A DNA stretch of 64,000 bases from Candidatus Aminicenantes bacterium. GTDB taxonomy: Bacteria > Acidobacteriota > Aminicenantia > Aminicenantales > JAFGBC01. Positions 8,935-56,943 of the stretch are shown here, in pieces. Made by a program: the position numbers and the translations under genes. The notes beneath the pieces were generated by a model. That model made no database searches, was not told the DNA's origin, and saw nothing but the letters and a program-made list of their open reading frames with translations. Each line of letters starts with the position of its first letter. Position 1 is the first letter of the stretch. The DNA lies in assembly GCA_022867325.1 (NCBI GenBank), contig JALHUR010000084.1:6084-70083 (forward strand), given 5' to 3'.

Positions 8935-10092
8935 CTACTTCGCGTCCCGGACGGGGCCGACCACTTCGTGGGCGATGACCAGGCGCTGAATCTCGTTCGT
9001 TCCCTCGTAGATCTGGAGAAGCTTCGCGTCCCGCATCAGCTTCTCCATCGGATAGTCTTTCATATAGCCGTACCCTCCGCAAATTTGAAGGGCTTCGGTC
9101 GTCGTCCGCATGGCCACGTCGCTGGCAAAGCACTTGGCCATGGCCGATTCTTTCCCGCAGGGTTTTCCCCGGTCCATCAGCCAGGCCGCGTTCCAGACGA
9201 GATGGCGGGCCGCGTTGATCTCCATGGCCATCTGGGCGATCTTGAGCTGGTTGGCCTGGAAAAGGGCGATCGCTTTCCCGAACTGGACCCGTTTCTTGGC
9301 GTACTCGACGGCATAGTCGAGCGCCGCCCGGGCGACCCCGACTCCGGCCGCCCCGACCGGGGCCCGTGTGTTGTCGAGCGTCTTCATGGCGACCATGAAT
9401 CCCAAGCCTTCCCGCCCCAGCAGGTTCGCCCGCGGAACCCGAACGTCGTCGAAGAAGACCTCGGCCGTGTTCGAGGCCCGGTGACCCATCTTGTCCTCGA
9501 CCTTTCCGACCGAGACTCCGGGCGTGTCGCGCGGGACGATGACGGCGCTGATTCCCCGCTTGCCCTTGCCGGGCGCGGTCAGGGCGAAGACGACGTAGAG
9601 GTCGGCGATCCCGCCGTTGGTGATGAAGCACTTGGACCCGTTGATGACGAAATCGGAGCCGTCCTTGAGGGCCCGGCTCTTGAGGCCGCCCGCGTCCGAA
9701 CCGGCTTCCCGCTCGGTCAGGCAGAAGGAGGCGAACGTCATCTTGCGGGTCGCGGGCGCCAGGAAGCGCTTTTTCTGTTCGGGCGAACCGAACAGGATGA
9801 GCGGCGTGTAGGCCAGGGAATTGGCCATGATCGTCGTGTACATGCCCGCGCAGCCGGCCGCCAGCTCTTCGCTGACGATGACCGTGTCGACGTTGCCCAG
9901 CTCTCCCCCGCCGTACTCGGCCGGAATGTTGCAGGTCATGAAGCCCGCCTCGAAAGCTTTCTGGAAGACGTCGGTCGGCGTCTCGTGGCCTTGATCGTAC
10001 TTGGCCGCCTTGGGTTTCATCTCTTTTTCGGCGAACTCGCGGGCCATTTCACGAAGGGCCAGCTGTTCTTCGGACAAGCTGAAATCAATCAT
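8935..10092 (-). CDS. acyl-CoA dehydrogenase
   Basis: 385 aa. Full-length ACAD similarity (MIDFSLSEEQLALREMAREFAEKEM ... YEGTNEIQRLVIA). Confidence 0.9.
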   Translation of the reverse strand: MIDFSLSEEQLALREMAREFAEKEMKPKAAKYDQGHETPTDVFQKAFEAGFMTCNIPAEYGGGELGNVDTVIVSEELAAGCAGMYTTIMANSLAYTPLILFGSPEQKKRFLAPATRKMTFASFCLTEREAGSDAGGLKSRALKDGSDFVINGSKCFITNGGIADLYVVFALTAPGKGKRGISAVIVPRDTPGVSVGKVEDKMGHRASNTAEVFFDDVRVPRANLLGREGLGFMVAMKTLDNTRAPVGAAGVGVARAALDYAVEYAKKRVQFGKAIALFQANQLKIAQMAMEINAARHLVWNAAWLMDRGKPCGKESAMAKCFASDVAMRTTTEALQICGGYGYMKDYPMEKLMRDAKLLQIYEGTNEIQRLVIAHEVVGPVRDAK

Positions 10093-12844
10093 TGTCTTTT
10101 CCTCTCCCGGGGCTCGGACGTTCGCCGAGACGTTGACCTTTTATACCCGAATCGAGAATCTCTGTCAAACCCTCGACTCCCCGGCCTGAAGGCCGGGGCT
10201 TGGTCAGGGTTGACCCTGAGCCGCCCTTTTCGTCCCCGCCTTGAAAGGAGGGGCTTAGCGTCGGCGAACGGGTCAATTTGGCCGTTTCCCCGCGCGGCGC
10301 GGCGGGGAGCACGGGCAGGAACCGGACTTCCTCACGGGCCATATCGTAGACCTGGTCCTCGAGGTTCAGGAGCTCGAAGACGACATCCTGGGGCCTGGGC
10401 GCTTTGCCGGGGCCTTGCGGGATGATCAGGACGAGGATCCGGGGAGGGCCCGACATTCGAATTTGGAGTCCGGACTCTCCTCCCTTGTCCTCGAGAAAGC
10501 GCCGGATCAGGGCGGAGAGCCTGTCGGCAAAGGAACCGTCCGGGATTTCTTTCCGGGCGCAGGCCGTCCGGACCGCTTCTTCCGCTTCGGGTCGATCAAG
10601 ATTCAGCGAATAGACCATGGAATGGACCGCCCGGGATAAAGGCGGCTCCGAATCGGCTAAAAGCCTAAGCTCAAGAAAACGGACGCCCTCCGGGGCCGAT
10701 GCGTTGAGGCGAACGATCGTCTCTTGGGCGGAGAGGGCGGTCCTGGATTTGAGCTCCAGGCAATCCTTTTTGGCCTCCATCCCCAGGGGAAGCGCGGGGA
10801 GAAACGAGACGATCATTTTGGGATGGAACCCTTCGGACATGGCGACCGAAAGGCCGGCCCTCCGGAATATTCTCTGGAGGACGTTGATGAGATCGAGATG
10901 GGACATGAAACGCGCCCGTCCTCCCTTTGAGTAAAAAAGACGGTAGCGAAGAGGCTGGGCGGAATCGCGGCCGAGACGAGGGAAAGGCTCTTCTCGATCG
11001 CCGGCCTCCCCTTCCTCGGAGGACCTGTCCAGGAAAGCGGGCAAGTCGCAGCCCCGGCAGTCGGCGCAAGTCCTTTCCAGACAGGACGGGGTCCTCTCCT
11101 CCGCCATGGCCCTGTCGAGCTCGCCTTGCAGGAATTCTTTCCTGACGCCGGTGTCGATATGGTCCCAGGGCAATAAGGCGTCGCGGTCCAGGGCGCCGAG
11201 ATAATCTCCTTTCTCGATGCCCGACGACATGAAGGCCTGCTCCCAACAGCGGGCCTGGAAACGGTCCTTCCAGCCGTCAAAACGGGCTCCATTCTCCCAG
11301 GCCGCCCTGAGAAGACGGGAGACCGCCCGATCTCCTCGCGAGAGTACCGCTTCCAGCACGGATTTCTCAACCGGATGGTCCTTGAAATCGATGAAACGGA
11401 ACCTTTTCAAACGATCCTTGAGGAAAGCCTGTTTTTCAAGGAGAGTCTCCGGTCCGTCCATGGCCTGCCATTGGAAGGGCGTATGCGGTTTAGGTATGAA
11501 TGAGGAGACGCTGAGGTTGAAGCGCGGCGGCGAATGGAGGATCGATCGGCCTTCCTCGACGAGGGCCTTGACGAGATCGACGATTGCAACCAGGTCTTCG
11601 TCCCGCTCCGTCGGCAGCCCGATCATGAAATAGAGCTTGAGAAGCCTCCAGCCATGGCGGAAAGCGCTCCGGGCCGCTTCGAAGATGTCGGCATCGTCGA
11701 GGTGCTTGTTAATGACCCGGCGCAACCTCTCGGTCCCGGCCTCGGGGACCAGGGTCAGGCCGGTCTTACGGACCGTGAGGATGCTCCGGACGATTTCGGT
11801 CGAGACGCCCTTGGGCCTCAATGACGACAGGGAGAGTGAAATCTTATCGGGCTCGAGCTCGGCCATGGCTTTCTTGATCAAACCGTCGAGGCCGGGATAG
11901 TCGCTCAGGGAAAGGGCGGTCAGGGACGCGTCTTCGTAGCCTGTCGCCCGCAGGCTTTTTTTCATCGTATTGAGGATGAACGCCCGGCTTTTGACCCGGA
12001 AGGGATGGTAGAGGGTTGTGGCCTGGCAGAACCTGCATTTATGGGGGCAGCCGCGGGCCGCCTCGACCGCGACGCGGTCGAATACGGCTTTAATGTTGGG
12101 GACGACGATGTCCTCCGGGAAATAAGACTCCCGGAACGACCGAACGATTCTTTTCTTTATGCGGGAAGGTTCCCCCGGCCCGGCCTTAACGGCCAGGAGT
12201 CTTGAGCGGTCCGGCCGATAGGTCTCGTAGAGGGACGGGACATAAACGCCGGGAATCCCGGCCAAATCCTTGAGAATCCGGCCCCTGTCTTGGGCGGCCC
12301 CTTTGAGCTCGATCAGCCGTTCGACGATTTCCGGGAATGCCTCCTCGCCGTCGCCGATCAGGAAGAGGTCGAAGAAATCCGCGACGGGCTCGGGATTGAA
12401 GGCGGACGGGCCGCCGGCGATGACGAGAGGATGGTTTCCGGTCCGGTTCGCCGCGAGAAGGGGGATCCGGCCCAAATCGAGCATGGTCAGGATGTTCGTC
12501 GCGTTGAGCTCGTAGAGGAGCGAAAAGCCCACGATGTCGAACCGGCCGAGCGGAGTGGCCGTCTCCAGCGAGAAGAGCGGAAGATCCCGCGCCCGGAGCT
12601 CGGCCTCGCAATCCGGCCAGGGCGCGAAGACGCGTTCGGCCTGGATATGGGGACGGTTGTTGAGGATGGCGTAGAGGATCTTCTGCCCCAGATACGACAT
12701 GCCGATTTCATAAACGTCGGGAAAGGCGAGCGCGACCCTGGCCCTGACGGCGGCCGGATCCTTGCGGCGGGCGTTCCATTCCCCTCCCGTGTAGCGGGCC
12801 GGCTTCTCGACCCGGCGCAGGACCCGGTCCAGGCCGTCAGACAT
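10085..12844 (-). CDS. B12-binding radical SAM protein (TIGR03960 family) fused to DUF2344 (TIGR03936)
   Basis: 919 aa with radical SAM Cys cluster AARGCPHKCRFCQ, followed by a DUF2344-like C-terminal half. The last about 65 codons read through repeat copy A1. 8-nt overlaps with rodA upstream and ACAD downstream. Confidence 0.8.
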   Translation of the reverse strand: MSDGLDRVLRRVEKPARYTGGEWNARRKDPAAVRARVALAFPDVYEIGMSYLGQKILYAILNNRPHIQAERVFAPWPDCEAELRARDLPLFSLETATPLGRFDIVGFSLLYELNATNILTMLDLGRIPLLAANRTGNHPLVIAGGPSAFNPEPVADFFDLFLIGDGEEAFPEIVERLIELKGAAQDRGRILKDLAGIPGVYVPSLYETYRPDRSRLLAVKAGPGEPSRIKKRIVRSFRESYFPEDIVVPNIKAVFDRVAVEAARGCPHKCRFCQATTLYHPFRVKSRAFILNTMKKSLRATGYEDASLTALSLSDYPGLDGLIKKAMAELEPDKISLSLSSLRPKGVSTEIVRSILTVRKTGLTLVPEAGTERLRRVINKHLDDADIFEAARSAFRHGWRLLKLYFMIGLPTERDEDLVAIVDLVKALVEEGRSILHSPPRFNLSVSSFIPKPHTPFQWQAMDGPETLLEKQAFLKDRLKRFRFIDFKDHPVEKSVLEAVLSRGDRAVSRLLRAAWENGARFDGWKDRFQARCWEQAFMSSGIEKGDYLGALDRDALLPWDHIDTGVRKEFLQGELDRAMAEERTPSCLERTCADCRGCDLPAFLDRSSEEGEAGDREEPFPRLGRDSAQPLRYRLFYSKGGRARFMSHLDLINVLQRIFRRAGLSVAMSEGFHPKMIVSFLPALPLGMEAKKDCLELKSRTALSAQETIVRLNASAPEGVRFLELRLLADSEPPLSRAVHSMVYSLNLDRPEAEEAVRTACARKEIPDGSFADRLSALIRRFLEDKGGESGLQIRMSGPPRILVLIIPQGPGKAPRPQDVVFELLNLEDQVYDMAREEVRFLPVLPAAPRGETAKLTRSPTLSPSFQGGDEKGGSGSTLTKPRPSGRGVEGLTEILDSGIKGQRLGERPSPGRGKDND
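10133..10168 (-). promoter_or_regulatory. putative internal promoter TTGACA-17-TATAAA for the acyl-CoA dehydrogenase gene; the -35 lies at the edge of repeat A1
   Basis: Minus strand: ggtTTGACAgagattctcgattcgggTATAAAagg, about 40 nt upstream of ACAD ATG at 10092. Confidence 0.35.
10181..10290 (-). repeat. palindromic mosaic repeat, family A copy 1 (minus orientation)
   Basis: Minus strand reads ttgacccgttcgccgacgcta...ggcggggacgaaaag...gctcagggtcaaccctga...ccccggccttcaggccgggg...gggtttgaca. Homologous to copies at 28880-29109 and 45287-45350. Confidence 0.7.
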
Positions 12845-18145: not shown

Positions 18146-18305
18146 GTTAAACCTGCCGTCCGTACCCGACTATTACTAACACAATTCGTCCCGGGACGCA
18201 ATCGGAAACCGGACGCGCGGCCGGGGGGTAGAGGGGTTGACACGTTCGCCGAGCCTCAGTGTTACCCCTGGACAAGCCTTGGCACTTATGCCGGCGGTCG
18301 AGGGG

Positions 18306-18335
18306 TTGACTTTGGACAGGGAAATTGAATATAAA
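18306..18335 (+). promoter_or_regulatory. putative sigma-70 promoter TTGACT-18-TATAAA for the OPT transporter gene
   Basis: ggggTTGACTttggacagggaaattgaaTATAAAttatg. AAAGGAG RBS before ATG 18367. Confidence 0.4.
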
Positions 18336-28879: not shown

Positions 28880-29109
28880 GCTCCTCCCGGTTGACGGACC
28901 GGATGCGAATTTGACCCGTTCGCCGACGCTACCCCGCCCTGAAAGGCGGGGACGAGAAGCGACACTTTTGTACTCAGCCCCTTGAGAGGAGATGGGGCTG
29001 AGTGGGCTCAGGGTTAACCCTGAGCAAGCCCCGCCTTGCAGTACTCAAGGAGCCGAAACAACGGCTCCTTGGGTGCCGGCATTCATGCCGGGGCGTCGAT
29101 GGGTTGACA
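28880..29109 (+). repeat. palindromic mosaic repeat, family A copy 2 (longest copy, with an extra internal hairpin module)
   Basis: ...cggttgacggaccggatgcgaatttgacccgttcgccgacgctaccccgccctgaaaggcggggacgagaagcgac[ctcagcccc..ggggctgag]ggctcagggttaaccctgag...ccggcattcatgccggggcgtcgatgggTTGACA. Confidence 0.7.
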
Positions 29110-29132
29110 CCTGCATGCGGCCGGGCGATAAT
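29104..29132 (+). promoter_or_regulatory. sigma-70 promoter TTGACA-17-GATAAT for the MBL-fold gene; the -35 hexamer is the terminal motif of repeat A2
   Basis: gggTTGACAcctgcatgcggccgggcGATAATcg, 40 nt before ATG 29172. Confidence 0.45.
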
Positions 29133-33038: not shown

Positions 33039-33243
33039 GCTGATGGGTGCGCTCGATCCGTTGACGGACGGCGAATCCCCTCCGCGCCATTCCACGGACG
33101 TCAGTCCGTGGAGGGATAGCGTATCGTCGCTTCGGGGACAGGCAGCGGTTTCGCAGTACTCATGAACCGGAAACGGTTCATGGGTGCGCTCCACCGCCTT
33201 CGACGGGCAGATCCCCGGACGTAAGTTCGTGGAGCTTCAGTCC
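33039..33243 (+). repeat. palindromic mosaic repeat, family B copy 1 (tandem units bounded by ccacggacgtNagtccgtgg hairpins)
   Basis: Begins 5 nt after the DUF5107 stop. Contains atgggtgcgctc modules, gaaccgGAAAcggttc and ccacggacgtcagtccgtggag / ccccggacgtaagttcgtggagcttcagt. Confidence 0.7.
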
Positions 33244-41645: not shown

Positions 41646-41808
41646 TAATCCCCTTCGAGGGATTCCACGGACGTTAGTCCATGGAGGAACCCCCTTTCGG
41701 GGGCTGGCAGCGATTTTGCAGTGCCCTTGAACCGGAAACGGTTCGTGTGCGCGCTCCGACGCCTGCAAAGGGTAGATCCCATGGACGTAAGTCCGTGGAG
41801 CTTCAGTA
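41646..41808 (+). repeat. palindromic mosaic repeat, family B copy 2
   Basis: Begins 14 nt after the GWxTD1 stop. attccacggacgttagtccatggag ... gaaccgGAAAcggttc ... gcgcgctccgacgcctgcaaagggtagatcccatggacGTAAgtccgtggagcttcagt. Confidence 0.7.
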
Positions 41809-45273: not shown

Positions 45274-45286
45274 GTCGTCTCTTTCA

Positions 45287-45424
45287 CCCGTTCGCCGACG
45301 CTACGCCGCCCTGAAAGGCGGGGACGAGAAGCGAGGCTCAGGGTTAACTTCCGCGCTTCGGGGACAGGCGCTCCAACACCTGCAAAGGGCAGATCCCACG
45401 GACGTAAGTCCGTGGAGCTTCAGT
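45287..45424 (+). repeat. composite repeat: family A copy 3 fused to a short family B copy 3
   Basis: cacccgttcgccgacgctacgccgccctgaaaggcggggacgagaagcgaggctcagggttaac | ttccgcgcttcggggacaggcgctccaacacctgcaaagggcagatcccacggacGTAAgtccgtggagcttcagt. Confidence 0.7.
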
Positions 45425-53696: not shown

Positions 53697-54169
53697 GCCG
53701 GTTTTCTCCTGAAAAGAACGATAAGGAGGAGGCAGGCGCCGATCGAAATGCAGGAATCGGCGAGGTTGAAGATCGGCCAGTGCCAGCGCTTGATGTAGAC
53801 GTCCATGAAGTCGATGACCGAGCCGCGCAGGATCCGGTCGACGTTGTTGCCGACGGCCCCGGCCAGGATCAAGGACAACGCGGCCAGCATCAGGACGTCC
53901 CGGCCCGGAGTCTTTATGAAATAGAAGACGACCAGCCCCAGGGCCAGGAAAGACGCCAGGGCCAGAATCCAGCGAAAGGCCGGGTTTCCGGCGTGGGACA
54001 GAAAGCCGAAGATGGCCCCGTCGTTGCGATTATAGGTAAGGTTGATAAACCCCCGGATGATGGGCCGGCTTTCATAGAGGGTCATGCTCTTGGCGATCAG
54101 GGACTTGGTCCATTGGTCCAGGACGACCGTAAGGCCGATCAATCCCAGGGCGAGTCCTTTCCGTTTCAC
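53693..54169 (-). CDS. lspA: lipoprotein signal peptidase II
   Basis: GTG start at 54169 overlapping the ileS TGA (GTGA). LspA motifs NRNDGAIFGF, FNLADSCISIG. Track ORF extends further upstream but would overlap ileS. Confidence 0.75.
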   Translation of the reverse strand: MKRKGLALGLIGLTVVLDQWTKSLIAKSMTLYESRPIIRGFINLTYNRNDGAIFGFLSHAGNPAFRWILALASFLALGLVVFYFIKTPGRDVLMLAALSLILAGAVGNNVDRILRGSVIDFMDVYIKRWHWPIFNLADSCISIGACLLLIVLFRRKPA

Positions 54170-56943
54170 GTCCGATTCCCTTCCAGGACTCCGGAGCAGC
54201 GACTGCAGCAGTTGGGAAAAGCCTTGGACAAGCCGACCGTCGTTGCGTAGTTCCAGCAGCGCTCGCATTTCTCCCCCGGGGCCCGGCCGACCCGGACCTC
54301 CAGCTCCGGGCCTCCCCCCTCCCCGAGCGTCACGGCCGAAACGATGAACAGGGCCGGGAGGGCGGCCTCGTGCTTTCGGAGAAGCCCGAGCTGGGCTTGG
54401 GGCGCGGCCAGGCTCAGCGACGCCTCGAGCGAATTCCCGATGAGTTTGTCCACACGGGCCTTCTCGAGCTCCTTGAGGACCTTCTCCCGGACGGCCATCA
54501 GAGCTTCCTGTTCGTTGAAGGGGTCCGGTTCGAGCCATCTTTCCTCGAAAGCGGGAAACAATCCCAAGTGGACGGACTCCGTTTTGCCGGAGAAAGCCGG
54601 CATGGCCTCCCAGGCCTCTTCGGTCGTGAAGGGGAGGATGGGCGCCATGAGGGCCAGCGTATCCTTAAGGATCCGGAACAGGGCCGTCTGGGCCGAACGC
54701 CTAAGGCGCGACTTTTTGGCCGAGCAGTAGAGCCGGTCCTTGATGATGTCGAGATAGACGGCGCACATCTCGACCGTGAAGAACTGGTAAAGGGAGTGGA
54801 AAACGACGTGGTACTCATAGTCTTGGTACCCCTGCAGGATGCGTCGGCCGGTCCGGGCCGTCGTCTCCAGCGCCCAGCCGTCGAAGATCTCCATCTCGGC
54901 GGCCGGGACGGCATCGGCGGCCGGGTCGAAATCGTAGAGGTTGCCGAGCAAGTAGCGCCAGGTGTTGCGGATCTTGCGGTAGGCCTCGACCAGGCGCTGG
55001 AGGATCTCGGTCCCGAACCGGGCGTCCTCCTTGAAGTTCAGCATGGCGACCCACAGCCGCAGGATCTCCGCCCCGTTCTGGGCGATGATCCGGCCGGGAT
55101 CGATGACATTCCCCATCGATTTCGACATCGCCCTCCCCTGCTCGTCCAGGACAAAGCCGTGGGTGATGCAAGTCCGGTAGGGCGATCCGCCTTTGGCTCC
55201 GACTCCGATCACGATCGAGCTGTTGAACCAGCCCCGGTACTGGTCGTGACCCTCGACGTAGACGTCGGCGGGCCAGGGCAGGTCGGGCCGTTTGCCCAGT
55301 TCGCCTTGGCTGGCCCCGGATTCGAACCAGACGTCGATGATGTCGTTGGCTTTTTCGAACTCCGCGGCGCCGCAGGAGGCGCAGGACGTTCCCCGGGGGA
55401 TGAGATCCCCGGCCGGCTTGATGTACCAGGCGTTCGAACCCTCCCTTGAAAAGACATCGGCGACGTGGCGGGCGATGCTGTCGCCGGCCACGACGGCCCC
55501 GCATCGGACTCAGTGAAAGGCCGGGATGGGTACGCCCCACAGGCGCTGGCGCGAGATGCACCAGTCGGGGCGGCCGCTCATCATATTGGCGATCCGCTCC
55601 TCGCCCCAGGCCGGAATCCAGCGGACCTTGCCGACCGCTGCCTGGGTTCGATCCCTCAGGCCGGCCGCGTCCATCGAGATGAACCATTGCTCGGTGGCCC
55701 GGAAGATGACGGGGTTCTTGCAGCGCCAGCAGTGGGGGTAGGAGTGGCTGATGGCTGTTTCCTTGAGGAGGCTCCCGTCCTTCTTCATGTCTTCGCTGAT
55801 GGGCTTATTGGCCTTGAAAACGTTGAGGCCGGCGTACTTGGCGACGTCGGGCGTGAAGTTCCCGGCGCCGTCGACGGGCGTGTAGATGTCGAGGCCGTAA
55901 GCCATGCCGGTCAGATAGTCGTCGTGGCCGTGTCCGGGCGCGGTGTGTACGGCGCCCGTCCCGTCCTCGAGAGTCACGTAATCGCCCAGGACGAAGACCG
56001 ATTCCCTGTCGATGAAGGGATGGCGGGCCTTGAAGCCCTCGAGTTCGCCGCCCAGGAAAGTCGCCAGGAGCTTAGTTTCCTTGAATCCGAGCTCTTCGGC
56101 CACCACCGGGACGAGGCGCTTGGCCAGGAGATAAACTTCGGCGCCGACCTCGACGGCCGCGTACTCGTGCTCGGGATGGAAGGCGATGGCCAGGTTGGCC
56201 GGCAGGGTCCAGGGCGTCGTCGTCCAGATCAGGACGTAGACCGTCTTTCCTTTGAGGGCCGGCGCTTTGGCGGACAGGTCGGAGACGACCGGAAACCGGA
56301 CGTAGATCGAAGGCGACGTCTTGTCCCTATACTCGATCTCGGCCTCGGCCAGGGCCGTTTGACAGTGGAAGCACCAATGGACCGGCCGCTTCCCTTTATA
56401 GACATTGCCCGAGGCAAAGAAAGCGGCCAGGTAGCGAATCGTCTCGGCCTCGTACTCGGGATTCATGGTCAGGTAGGGCGTTTCCCATTCGCCCAGGACG
56501 CCCAGCCGGATGAATTCGGAGCGCTGGATGTCGATGTATTGAAGGGCGTACCGCCGGCACTCTTCGCGGATCTGGGTGATCGACATGGATTTCTTTGCGT
56601 CGCCCAACTGCTTGTCGACCTGGATCTCGATCGGCAGGCCGTGGCAGTCCCAGCCGGGCAGGTAGGCGGCCTGGAATCCCTGCATGCTCTTGGTCTTGAC
56701 GATAAAATCCTTTAGGATCTTGTTGAGGGCCGTCCCGAGGTGGATGTGGCCGTTGGCGTAGGGAGGCCCGTCATGGAGGACGAAGCAGGGGCGGCCTTTC
56801 CGGGATTCCAGGATTTTCTTGTAGAGACCGATGGCGTCCCAGGCCTTGATGATTTCGGGTTCGTTCTGGGCCAGCTTGGCCTTCATCGAGAAAGACGTCT
56901 GGGGCAGGTTCAGGCTGAGCTTGAGATCCTTGTCGTCCGACAT
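54166..56943 (-). CDS. ileS: isoleucine--tRNA ligase, interrupted by a single in-frame TGA at 55510-55512
   Basis: ORFs 55510..56943 (HIGH-region half: PYANGHIHLG) and 54166..55491 (KMSKS half: KMSKSMGNV, C-terminal Zn-finger CERCW...CSRC) are in the same frame, 926 codons in total, with a coherent link ...WGVPIPAFH*VRCGAVVAGDSIARHVADVF. The stop sits where many IleS sequences have Cys (FYCExCG). Confidence 0.85.

What the first reader, a model, noticed from the sequence alone, without database searches (positions are those of the whole stretch)
28880..29109. Family A of palindromic mosaic intergenic repeats, three copies
Copies at 10181-10290 (minus orientation), 28880-29109 and 45287-45350 share a highly similar core. 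The core reads: (t)gacccgttcgccgacgcta-NN-ccgccctgaaaggcggggacgaRaagSga followed by the perfect palindrome ctcagggtYaaccctgaS. It contains two stable hairpins: ccccgcc-ctgaaa-ggcgggg and ctcaggg-ttaa-ccctgag. Copy 2 carries an extra inserted hairpin module (ctcagcccc...ggggctgag) and a 3' extension ccggcattcatgccggggcgtcgatgggttgaca, which also ends copy 1. All copies lie immediately 3' of genes, after or instead of terminators. This is REP/BIME- or MITE-like behaviour. No transposase is present in the window. Such elements can be lineage-specific, can be transcribed as structured RNA, and can serve as recombination or IS-targeting sites.
Basis: seen in the sequence. Interest (0 to 1): 0.65.

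Follow-up and report, generated by a model that had tools for sequence, protein, structure and literature searches.

The report
Promoter-homing miniature mobile element family
The three repeats are copies of a roughly 105-base gene-less mobile DNA element, widespread in uncultured Aminicenantes bacteria, that inserts right after the sequence TTGAC (the core of a promoter's -35 box) and carries its own TTGAC at its far end, so the promoter it lands in is rebuilt.

Summary
The window holds three family-A copies (10164-10276 minus; 28911-29108 plus; 45283-45348 plus, a half copy) and a diverged fourth (18237-18310).

The family is dispersed. I found 7 strict matches in one complete Aminicenantes MAG, one in another MAG, at least 120 metagenome stretches, and 92 distinct sites in about 1 Mb fetched.

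It is mobile. Four filled/empty pairs between near-identical strains, one of them window copy 1, show a precise 105-209 nt insertion immediately 3' of one pentamer.

The left pentamer comes from the target, usually TTGAC but ATGAC in one decisive pair. The right TTGAC belongs to the element. Orientation relative to the target is fixed at all 92 sites. There are no terminal inverted repeats.

Two similar subterminal hairpins are each preceded by a 4-nt "guide". The right guide obeys the published IS608 pairing rule fully; the left does so with one wobble.

Occupied sites are strongly enriched for TTGAC[A/T]-N17-TANNNT promoters, whose -35 box the element's end regenerates.

Best reading: a non-autonomous IS200/IS605-like (PATE-type) single-strand transposon. 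No transposase was found. It is not a REP/BIME element, a classical MITE or a known RNA.

The parts
28911..29108 (+). Copy 2 (the finding): a full-length composite element. It comprises left target pentamer TTGAC (28911-28915), domain 1, central TTAAC, domain 2 and the element-borne terminal TTGAC (29104-29108).
   Evidence: Sequence read. nhmmer pieces at 28911-28964, 28994-29040 and 29076-29109. Same composite architecture at unrelated sites L005, L032 and L123.
28932..28951 (+). Hairpin 1 (CCCCGCC-CTGAAA-GGCGGGG), the left subterminal hairpin. Its foot lies 16 nt after the left pentamer.
   Evidence: Helix 1 is paired in 91.8% of cells across 37 copies.
28963..29004 (+). Nested 42-nt hairpin module (CACTTTTGTACTCAGCCCC...GGGGCTGAGTG) inserted at a recurrent hot spot after GAGAAGCGA. 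It is not part of the basic element.
   Evidence: Absent from canonical copies. Many copies are split at model position 53/54.
29014..29018 (+). Central TTAAC at the junction of the two domains. It resembles a unit junction and is the point where half copies end.
   Evidence: Copy 3 and L127 end exactly here.
29034..29075 (+). Second nested about 42-nt hairpin module (CCTTGCAGTACTCAAGGAGCCGAAACAACGGCTCCTTGGGTG) inserted after CCCCG in the 5' arm of hairpin 3.
   Evidence: The same module at the same CCCCG junction sits in frame inside a methylase gene in L156.
29076..29103 (+). Rest of hairpin 3 (CCGGC-ATTCAT-GCCGGGG) plus the 10-nt linker CGTCGATGGG. This is the right subterminal hairpin region.
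   Evidence: Helix 3 is paired in 96.5% of cells.
29104..29132 (+). Promoter of the downstream metallo-beta-lactamase-fold gene: TTGACA-17 nt-GATAAT. The -35 TTGAC is the element's own right end; the -10 is unique flank.
   Evidence: Consensus scan gives 11 of 12 matches, with 0.0 expected in shuffles. Pfam.
10164..10276 (-). Copy 1: canonical full-length element. Left TTGAC is 10276-10272 and right TTGAC is 10168-10164. The insertion is 108 nt. It is followed by a 17-nt spacer and TATAAA (10145-10140) upstream of the acyl-CoA dehydrogenase gene.
   Evidence: Empty orthologous site in L129, L130 and L131. The promoter is conserved and empty in distant relatives.
45283..45348 (+). Copy 3: half copy with left pentamer TTCAC, domain 1 only, ending at the central TTAAC. 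Family-B hairpin modules follow. It lies between convergent genes after a terminator.
   Evidence: Flanking genes.
18237..18310 (+). Diverged short copy lacking hairpin 1, bounded by TTGAC and TTGAC. Its right end forms TTGACT-18 nt-TATAAA upstream of an OPT transporter gene. A right-end remnant (GCCGGGGGGTAGAGGGG) directly precedes it.

Best explanation
Family A is a non-autonomous mobile element of about 100 nt plus a terminal TTGAC, with no coding capacity.

**How it inserts.** It inserts in one fixed orientation, immediately 3' of a pentanucleotide whose consensus is TTGAC. The last two bases, AC, are invariant. The left pentamer is the target's own sequence. The right TTGAC is part of the element.

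**Likely mechanism.** Three features match the ends of IS200/IS605-family elements:
- It has no terminal inverted repeats.
- It has two similar GC-rich subterminal hairpins in direct orientation.
- A 4-nt guide lies 5' of each hairpin foot, complementary under the IS608 rule to the cleavage motif.

The most likely mechanism is therefore single-strand 'peel-and-paste' transposition by a Y1 HUH transposase supplied in trans. That would make it a PATE-type element with TAM = TEM = TTGAC. This step is inferred.

**Why it sits in promoters.** TTGAC is the core of the sigma-70 -35 hexamer, and the element ends in TTGAC. Insertion into a -35 box therefore rebuilds the box at the same distance from the -10. 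Such insertions should be tolerated, whereas most insertions into coding TTGAC sites would be purged. That would explain why surviving copies pile up at promoters (inferred).

**Why it forms mosaics.** Each inserted unit creates a new TTGAC or TTAAC site at its own right end. This would explain tandem and mosaic arrays and the two-domain build of the full element (inferred).
For: **Dispersal.**
- 8 genome loci in two other Aminicenantes MAGs.
- 193 nhmmer hits, 84 of them full length.
- 92 distinct complete sites.

**Mobility: four filled/empty pairs, the L035/L100, L117/L033 and L089/L155 pairs with about 99% identical flanks.**
- L035 filled versus L100 empty, 108 nt.
- L117 filled versus L033 empty, 205 nt plus 4 nt.
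- Window copy 1 filled versus L129-131 empty, 108 nt.
- L089 filled versus L155 empty, 105 nt.

**The left pentamer is target, the right is element.**
- In the L089/L155 pair the empty site reads ATGAC once. The filled site reads ATGAC[...TTGAC]. The ATG is the methylase start codon.
- About 20 sites have a variant left pentamer with a right TTGAC; only about 3 show the reverse.
- Left positions 1-3 vary by about 5-16% per column. The body shows 1.5-2% private mismatches per nt, and the right TTGAC is invariant.

**Orientation.** No site out of 92 is in the inverse orientation.

**Architecture versus IS608.**
- IS608 has CL 19 nt 5' of the left hairpin foot and outside the element. CR lies inside the element, 10 nt 3' of the right hairpin foot.
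- In IS608 the guides are the 4 nt 5' of each foot. The pairs are C(-3):G1, C(-4):G2 and C(-1):G4, with A(-2) unpaired. The two bases 3' of the right foot are AG.
- Family A has the left pentamer 16-18 nt 5' of hairpin 1.
- Hairpin 3 is preceded by CAAG and followed by AG; the element ends 15 nt after its foot.
- TGAC against CAAG satisfies all three pairs.
- The left guide TAAG fits TGAC with one G:T wobble. It fits the central TAAC perfectly.

**Promoter association.**
- TANNNT at spacer 17-18 occurs in 36% of 86 sites, against about 1% at other offsets.
- At least 5/6 match to TATAAT in 20/86 sites, against 1-2/86 in controls.
- Only 5.2% of 2249 non-element TTGAC sites are promoter-like.
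- 54/86 sites have a co-directional ORF starting within 300 nt downstream; 9/86 have a convergent one.
- The acyl-CoA dehydrogenase promoter TTGAC[A/T]-N17-TATAAA is conserved and empty in distant relatives.
Against: - No transposase was identified. Pfam found none among 49 window ORFs.
- tblastn with IS200 TnpA and E. coli RAYT sequences, recalled from memory, found nothing in 1.1 Mb.
- No long element with these ends was seen.
- Two independent sites of different subtypes carry TCGAC at both ends (L093/L087 cluster and L062). That looks like a true target duplication; chance about 0.0014.
- A 2-bp AC duplication, with the element ending in TTG, cannot be formally excluded by any pair.
- The L117/L033 pair has 4 unexplained extra bases (TCTG) at the left junction.
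- The minority subtype lacking 'AG' has GCTA, not TAAG, 5' of hairpin 1, which does not fit the guide rule.
- The right linker is 15 nt, against 10 nt in IS608.
- Lagging-strand bias was not tested.
- Promoter function and neutrality of insertion are inferred, not measured.
Confidence: 0.6

Rival explanations
1. A classical MITE moved by a DDE transposase, making a short target-site duplication (5-bp TTGAC, or 2-bp AC with a strong preference for TTG upstream).
For: TTGAC flanks both ends at 62 of 92 sites, and TCGAC flanks both ends at two independent sites. Empty sites carry one copy of the pentamer. Size and copy number are MITE-like.
Against: - The termini share only about 7 of 12 bases as inverted repeats (sequence inspection).
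- Orientation is fixed relative to an asymmetric target at 92/92 sites.
- The L089/L155 pair shows ATGAC on the left and TTGAC on the right with a single ATGAC in the empty site. A 5-bp duplication is therefore excluded there.
- Variation is strongly asymmetric between the left and right pentamers.
Confidence: 0.2
2. A REP/BIME-type repeat spread by a RAYT (REP-associated tyrosine transposase), or by recombination and slippage, as in enterobacterial BIMEs.
For: GC-rich hairpins, mosaic and nested organisation, intergenic bias and strain-level module gain or loss. RAYTs are also Y1 HUH enzymes.
Against: - No GTAG or CGTC tag, and the stems do not begin with the A-T pairs described for CGTC REPs.
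- The unit has two different ends with a defined target pentamer and precise empty sites. This is not described for REPs.
- No RAYT-like hit in 1.1 Mb, using a recalled query.
Confidence: 0.1
3. A selected cis-regulatory or structured-RNA element (regulator binding site, insulator, terminator or small RNA) maintained for host function rather than a selfish mobile element.
For: High sequence conservation across species (92% mean column identity). An 18-bp palindrome about 50 bp upstream of -35 boxes. The consensus folds well below shuffles (z -4.4 as DNA, -5.1 as RNA).
Against: - Close relatives have the same promoters without the element.
- Copies also occur inside coding sequences and between convergent genes.
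- No Rfam match at gathering threshold, and only about 19 bits against 65 needed at E<1.
- No compensatory changes in the three-hairpin model and only two weakly covarying pairs in the two-domain model.
- No T-tract terminators.
Confidence: 0.04
4. Local duplication within this genomic region, not a dispersed family.
For: None beyond the three copies lying within 35 kb.
Against: 92 distinct sites with unrelated flanks, found in several genomes and many metagenome contigs.
Confidence: 0.01

Closest known systems
PATEs (palindrome-associated transposable elements), the gene-less derivatives of IS200/IS605-family insertion sequences such as IS608 and ISDra2
   Same: - No coding capacity and no terminal inverted repeats.
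- Subterminal hairpins at both ends on one strand.
- Insertion 3' of a 4-5-nt motif that stays on the left flank (TAM), with a cleavage motif at the very right end inside the element (TEM).
- Strict orientation and precise empty sites.
- 4-nt guides 5' of the hairpin feet that pair with the cleavage motif by the IS608 rule.
- TTGAT (ISDra2) and TTGAC have been discussed as TAMs.
   Different: - No partner TnpA or TnpB was found.
- TAM and TEM are the same sequence, and that sequence is the -35 core, so insertions rebuild promoters.
- The right linker is 15 nt rather than 10 nt.
- The element looks like two hairpin units joined at an internal TTAAC.
- Two sites look like real duplications (TCGAC at both ends).
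- No omega-RNA-like Rfam match.
Correia elements (Neisseria) and other bacterial MITEs with promoter activity
   Same: About 100-150 nt, high copy number, mostly just upstream of genes, and contributing sigma-70-type promoter hexamers (review read).
   Different: By my own knowledge, not tested here, Correia elements have 26-bp inverted repeats and a TA duplication. Per the review they carry their own promoters. Family A has no inverted repeats, targets an existing -35 box and supplies only the replacement TTGAC.
REP/BIME repeats (GTAG- and CGTC-tagged REPs) and REPINs
   Same: GC-rich hairpins, mosaic arrays, intergenic location, and possible mobilisation by a Y1 HUH enzyme.
   Different: Family A lacks the tags and stem rules. 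The unit is larger and has two distinct ends, a defined target pentamer and documented empty sites.
Rickettsia palindromic elements (RPEs)
   Same: Some family-A copies sit in frame inside protein-coding genes and add a peptide. Examples are the 105-nt copies after the start codon in L007 and L089, and the peptide TRSPTL...GVEGLT inside P0123.
   Different: Intragenic copies are the minority here. The resemblance to RPEs is recalled from knowledge, not tested.

Membership tests
IS200/IS605-derived non-autonomous element (PATE) | Inserts 3' of a specific 4-5-nt target that remains on the left flank, without target duplication. | tested here: met
   Four filled/empty pairs. In L089/L155 the left ATGAC equals the empty site and the right pentamer is TTGAC. 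Caveats: a 2-bp AC duplication is not excluded, and two sites have TCGAC at both ends.
IS200/IS605-derived non-autonomous element (PATE) | No terminal inverted repeats; imperfect palindromes near both ends on the same strand. | tested here: met
   Hairpin 1 (CCCCGCC...GGCGGGG) and hairpin 3 (CCCCGGC...GCCGGGG) are in direct orientation and 92-97% paired across copies. The termini match as inverted repeats at only about 7/12 positions.
IS200/IS605-derived non-autonomous element (PATE) | Strand- and orientation-specific insertion relative to the target motif. | tested here: met
   0 of 92 distinct sites are in the inverse orientation, which would show as GTCAA at both ends.
IS200/IS605-derived non-autonomous element (PATE) | 4-nt guide 5' of each hairpin foot pairs with the cleavage motif (IS608 rule: C-3:G1, C-4:G2, C-1:G4, A-2 unpaired). 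| tested here: met
   Right end: CAAG against TGAC fits fully, and the two bases 3' of the foot are AG as in IS608. Left end (majority subtype): TAAG against TGAC fits with one G:T wobble. The minority subtype (GCTA) does not fit.
IS200/IS605-derived non-autonomous element (PATE) | A Y1 HUH transposase (TnpA) in the same genome, on an element with matching ends. | tested here: inconclusive
   None in the window or in 1.1 Mb of loci by tblastn with recalled queries. Whole genomes could not be searched.
IS200/IS605-derived non-autonomous element (PATE) | Top strand preferentially on the lagging-strand template. | not tested
   Locus positions in the closed MAG chromosome were not available. Any skew test would be confounded by gene orientation.
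Classical bacterial MITE (DDE-mobilised) | Terminal inverted repeats. | tested here: not met
   5' CCGTTCGCCGAC compared with the reverse complement of the 3' end, CCCCTCGACTCC, gives about 7/12 matches (consensus).
Classical bacterial MITE (DDE-mobilised) | Target-site duplication flanking the element. | tested here: inconclusive
   Pentamers are identical at 64/92 sites, but ATGAC/TTGAC with an ATGAC empty site and about 20 one-sided discordant sites argue against a 5-bp duplication.
REP / BIME (GTAG or CGTC super-families) | 20-40-nt palindrome with an unpaired GTAG or CGTC tag. CGTC stems of 8-9 bp start with A-T pairs, loops are 4-5 nt, and there is a CCA tail. | tested here: not met
   Definitions. 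Hairpins here have 7-bp all-G/C stems and 6-nt loops. 'CGTC' abuts hairpin 1 on the minus strand, but the stem and tail rules fail.
Known structured RNA family (Rfam 15) | Match at the family's gathering score. | tested here: not met
   0 matches in the whole window. The best sub-threshold match is 19 bits against 65.3 needed.

The most novel reading that the evidence does not exclude
Family A may be more than a passive passenger. It could be the omega-RNA/guide-bearing partner of a TnpB- or IscB-type RNA-guided nuclease whose TAM is TTGAC. Vacated promoter sites (TTGAC plus promoter spacer) would then be re-cut and the element re-installed. That would be a homing system specialised on promoters. 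PATEs are reported often to encode omega RNAs, and TTGAC has been proposed as a TnpB TAM. Nothing here tests transcription or a nuclease partner.
Probability: 0.07. Interest if true: 0.85.

Novelty: new variant of a known kind. Interest (0 to 1): 0.6.

Why it matters
**Biology.**
- This is a natural transposon family whose target motif and own terminal motif are both the -35 core. It can colonise promoters without destroying them.
- That is a bacterial counterpart of integrative elements that rebuild the tRNA gene they enter. In my literature searches I found no description of it.
- It gives a concrete sequence handle, the two ends plus TTGAC, for finding a new HUH transposase in a phylum with no cultured members.

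**Practical consequences for Aminicenantes genomics.**
- The elements break assemblies.
- They extend or split ORF calls, for example a 919-aa radical SAM ORF against about 847 aa in relatives.
- They add 35-residue peptides to real proteins.
- They differ between strains, so they can serve as strain markers.
- They move every upstream promoter element about 105 bp away.

Tried and rejected
- **Rfam.** At gathering threshold and at E<1, no family matched.
- **Viral contig scan.** 0 matches.
- **Search for an autonomous copy.** I looked for 5' and 3' ends 0.7-6 kb apart. I found only chance matches or heavily nested composites. L032's 'long' copy is a 255-nt composite next to an era-like GTPase gene.
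- **tblastn with IS200 TnpA and E. coli RAYT.** There were no hits, so this is weak evidence.
- **Protein search with the element-encoded peptide.** The second found only one 52-aa ORF. The word index is insensitive for 40-aa queries, so this is uninformative.
- **Covariation.**
  - Copies are too alike (92% column identity).
  - The three-hairpin model shows 0 compensatory pairs.
  - The two-domain model shows 2 pairs (73-107 and 88-93), with 9/500 shuffles as high. This is suggestive only.
- **CGTC-REP idea.** Rejected on the stem and tail rules.
- **5-bp TSD idea.** This was my first reading. I downgraded it after the asymmetry analysis and the ATGAC pair.
- **P0123 DNA look-up.** Not on record.
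- **Literature searches.** I searched for Aminicenantes repeats and for TTGAC-targeting elements. No prior description turned up.

Full report

Yes. The 17-mer CCCGTTCGCCGACGCTA occurs exactly at 10256-10272 (minus), 28915-28931 and 45287-45303. With up to 3 mismatches, 0.47 matches are expected. GGCGGGGACGARAAGSG is exact at the same three places. The two plus-strand copies share 53 nt at 96% identity.

Reading the sequence and a profile search corrects the boundaries:
- Copy 1 is 10164-10276 (minus).
- Copy 2 is 28911-29108.
- Copy 3 is 45283-45348 and is only the 5' half.

A diverged short copy at 18237-18310 had been missed. Rfam has no match.

**2. Is it a dispersed family?**

Yes. The pattern CGTTCGCCGACGCTA-N10-35-GACGARAAG gave these results:

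| Collection | Result |
|---|---|
| Reference genomes | 8 loci: 7 in the closed Candidatus Aminicenantes MAG OY969696.1, 1 in a second MAG |
| Viral contigs | 0 |

The window is from neither of these two MAGs. Loci L034, L044 and L094 are conspecific with it at 97-99% identity.

In the window plus 961 kb of loci, a profile built from seven copies finds 193 hits, 84 of them full length. Pairing ends and removing duplicate flanks leaves 92 distinct complete sites.

**3. Anatomy.**

The consensus is:

TTGAC | CCGTTCGCCGACGCTA(AG) | CCCCGCC-TTTCAA-GGCGGGG | ACGAGAAGCGAGGCTCAGGG-TTAAC-CCCGAACAAG | CCCCGGC-ATTCAT-GCCGGGG | AGTCGAGGGG-TTGAC | A/T.

- The body is very uniform, with 1.5-2% private mismatches per nucleotide outside a few subtype columns.
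- The middle 'perfect palindrome' is degenerate in most copies.
- The consensus folds better as two long imperfect hairpin domains joined at GGGTTAACCC. This model is 94% paired; z is -4.4 as DNA and -5.1 as RNA.
- Compensatory change is almost absent because the copies are so alike.
- Many copies, including copy 2, carry nested unrelated 42-nt hairpin modules at recurrent points.

**4. It is mobile.**

Four filled/empty pairs were found; the first two and the fourth have about 99% identical flanks, and for the window pair only the 96% identity of the acyl-CoA dehydrogenase protein was measured.

| Filled | Empty | Insertion |
|---|---|---|
| L035 | L100 | 108 nt |
| L117 | L033 | 205 nt composite, plus 4 unexplained bases |
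| Window copy 1 | L129/L130/L131 | 108 nt |
| L089 | L155 | 105 nt |

In the first three pairs the empty site has a single TTGAC. That TTGAC is the -35 of a good promoter:
- TTGACA-N18-TAATCT
- TTGACT-N17-TATAAA
- TTGACA-N17-TATAAA

At the acyl-CoA dehydrogenase gene the promoter is conserved and empty in more distant Aminicenantes (L134, L144, L154). A relative with 88% protein identity carries a different, diverged copy at the same -35 box (L132). The promoter therefore predates the element and has been hit at least twice.

**5. Target versus element end.**

My first reading was a 5-bp target duplication, but the data are asymmetric.
- The left pentamer varies at positions 1-3: TTTAC 6 sites, TCGAC 4, ATGAC 3, TTAAC 3, and others.
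- Its last two bases, AC, and the whole right TTGAC are as invariant as the body.
- Copies with variant left pentamers are not older than the rest.
- The fourth pair settles the direction. The empty site is ...TATAATGGTCCC-ATGAC-CGAAGCC. The filled site is ...ATGAC[CCGTTC...GAGGGGTTGAC]CGAAGCC.
- There the ATG is the start codon of a SpoU/TrmH methylase (MTEAPNR...).

So the left pentamer is target and at least the first T of the right pentamer comes with the element.

Orientation relative to the asymmetric target is fixed at all 92 sites. There are no usable terminal inverted repeats.

Two observations remain unexplained:
- Two sites have TCGAC on both sides.
- A 2-bp AC duplication is not formally excluded.

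**6. Mechanism.**

These properties are those of IS200/IS605-family ends. The published facts for IS608 are:
- The left cleavage motif TTAC lies 19 nt 5' of the left hairpin foot and is not part of the element.
- The right motif TCAA is inside the element, 10 nt 3' of the right hairpin foot.
- The 4 nt 5' of each foot are guides: AAAG on the left, GAAT on the right.
- The pairs are C(-3):G1, C(-4):G2 and C(-1):G4, with A(-2) unpaired.
- The two bases 3' of the right foot (A, G) form base triples.

Family A compares as follows:
- The pentamer lies 16-18 nt 5' of hairpin 1.
- Hairpin 3 is preceded by CAAG and followed by AG, and the element ends 15 nt after its foot.
- TGAC against CAAG satisfies every pair.
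- The left guide TAAG, in the majority subtype, fits TGAC with one wobble.
- TAAG fits the central TAAC perfectly. This suggests the full element is two hairpin units in tandem.
- That would also explain half copies ending at TTAAC (copy 3, L127) and tandem short units sharing TTGAC (L008).

Gene-less elements with such ends are called PATEs. Their flanking and terminal motifs are called TAM and TEM.

No transposase was found in the window or in the loci. The enzyme is therefore inferred.

**7. Why promoters?**

TANNNT sits 17-18 nt after the right TTGACN in 36% of 86 sites, against about 1% at other offsets. Matches of at least 5/6 to TATAAT occur in 20/86 sites, against 1-2/86 in control windows. 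The base after TTGAC is A or T in 76/86 sites.

Only 5.2% of 2249 other TTGAC sites in the same DNA are promoter-like. A co-directional ORF starts within 300 nt downstream at 54/86 sites, against 9/86 with a convergent ORF.

Because the element ends in TTGAC, a -35 box hit by it is rebuilt at the same spacing from its -10. Copy 2 is an example: TTGACA-17-GATAAT, 11 of 12 matches. I infer that such insertions are near-neutral while most others are purged.

Some copies survive in coding DNA when in frame:
- L007 and L089 have 105-nt copies directly after ATG-AC start codons.
- P0123 has the element's peptide inside the same methylase.

**8. Comparison and novelty.**

- The family is closest to PATEs of the IS200/IS605 family.
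- It fails the definitions of GTAG/CGTC REPs and of classical MITEs, and it matches no RNA family.
- TTGAC has been discussed as a possible TnpB TAM.
- I found no report of an element family whose TAM and TEM are the -35 core and which homes to promoters, nor any description of repeats in Aminicenantes.
- I rate it a new variant of a known kind.

Interest is 0.6. The mobility, target and promoter association are well shown. The enzyme and the phenotypic neutrality are inferred.

Noticed in passing
window 10085-12844 (minus): The radical SAM/DUF2344 ORF is 919 aa, against about 847 aa in relatives. The relatives' stop codon (GCGCTGAAAAAC) reads GCGCGGGGAAAC here. The ORF therefore runs through element copy 1 and 8 nt into the next gene, adding about 58 residues. 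This could be real stop loss or a sequencing error.
   Followed up: partly
window 33074-33235, 41647-41807, 45349-45424: A second mosaic repeat family ('family B') built from several small hairpin modules, for example CCACGGACGTnAGTCCGTGGAG and GTACTCATGAACCGGAAACGGTTCATG. One copy abuts family-A copy 3. The 33.1-kb copy differs in length between the window and the conspecific contigs L034 and L044.
   Followed up: partly
window 29034-29075; L156 about 640-690: A 42-nt single-hairpin module (CCTTGCAGTACTCAAGGAGCCGAAACAACGGCTCCTTGGGTG) is inserted after CCCCG in hairpin 3 of copy 2. It is also inserted, at the same CCCCG junction and in frame, in the 5' coding region of a SpoU methylase gene in L156. 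It looks like an independent tiny mobile element with its own target.
   Followed up: partly
window 29088-29095 versus L034 5542-5648 and L044 6968-7074: Conspecific strains carry about 98 nt of extra nested hairpin modules inside the right end of copy 2. The same long composite occurs at an unrelated site in L032. This is either recent module gain or loss, or gene conversion between copies.
   Followed up: partly
L093/L087 cluster and L062 (8745): Two independent copies of different subtypes have TCGAC, not TTGAC, at both ends. No model in which one pentamer comes from the element explains this. A T:G mismatch correction in a heteroduplex is one speculative way out.
   Followed up: partly
L117 4280-4284 versus L033 8052-8056: The filled allele has four extra bases (TCTG) just 5' of the left TTGAC that are absent from the otherwise 99% identical empty allele.
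   Followed up: no
L007 (about 2060-2169, minus), L089, protein P0123: These are in-frame intragenic copies. A 105-nt copy lies directly after ATG-AC start codons of a UroD-like gene and a SpoU methylase gene. The peptide TRSPTL...GDEKRGSGLTPNKPRHSCRGVEGLT lies inside the methylase of an NCBI Aminicenantes MAG. All three copies with left pentamer ATGAC are 105 nt, a multiple of three.
   Followed up: partly
L091 (2882) and L119 (1318): Two copies share the same 30-nt upstream flank (..GTCTCTCCGCTCTCTCCAGCCGCCC) but have different downstream flanks. Either the flank is itself a repeat, or copies have recombined.
   Followed up: no
L035 2111-2227 versus L086: A 115-nt indel between near-identical contigs is bounded by a 13-nt direct repeat (TTCGGCCGCCGTC). 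It is unrelated to family A.
   Followed up: no
window 54166-56943 (minus): A class-I aminoacyl-tRNA synthetase is split into two adjacent ORFs (55510-56943 and 54166-55491). This is a possible frameshift, pseudogene or assembly error.
   Followed up: no
window 18210-18241: Directly upstream of the short copy lies a remnant of another right end (GCCGGGGGGTAGAGGGG-TTGAC). This site therefore holds a tandem of two units sharing one TTGAC, like the tandem 70-nt units in L008 805-945.
   Followed up: partly
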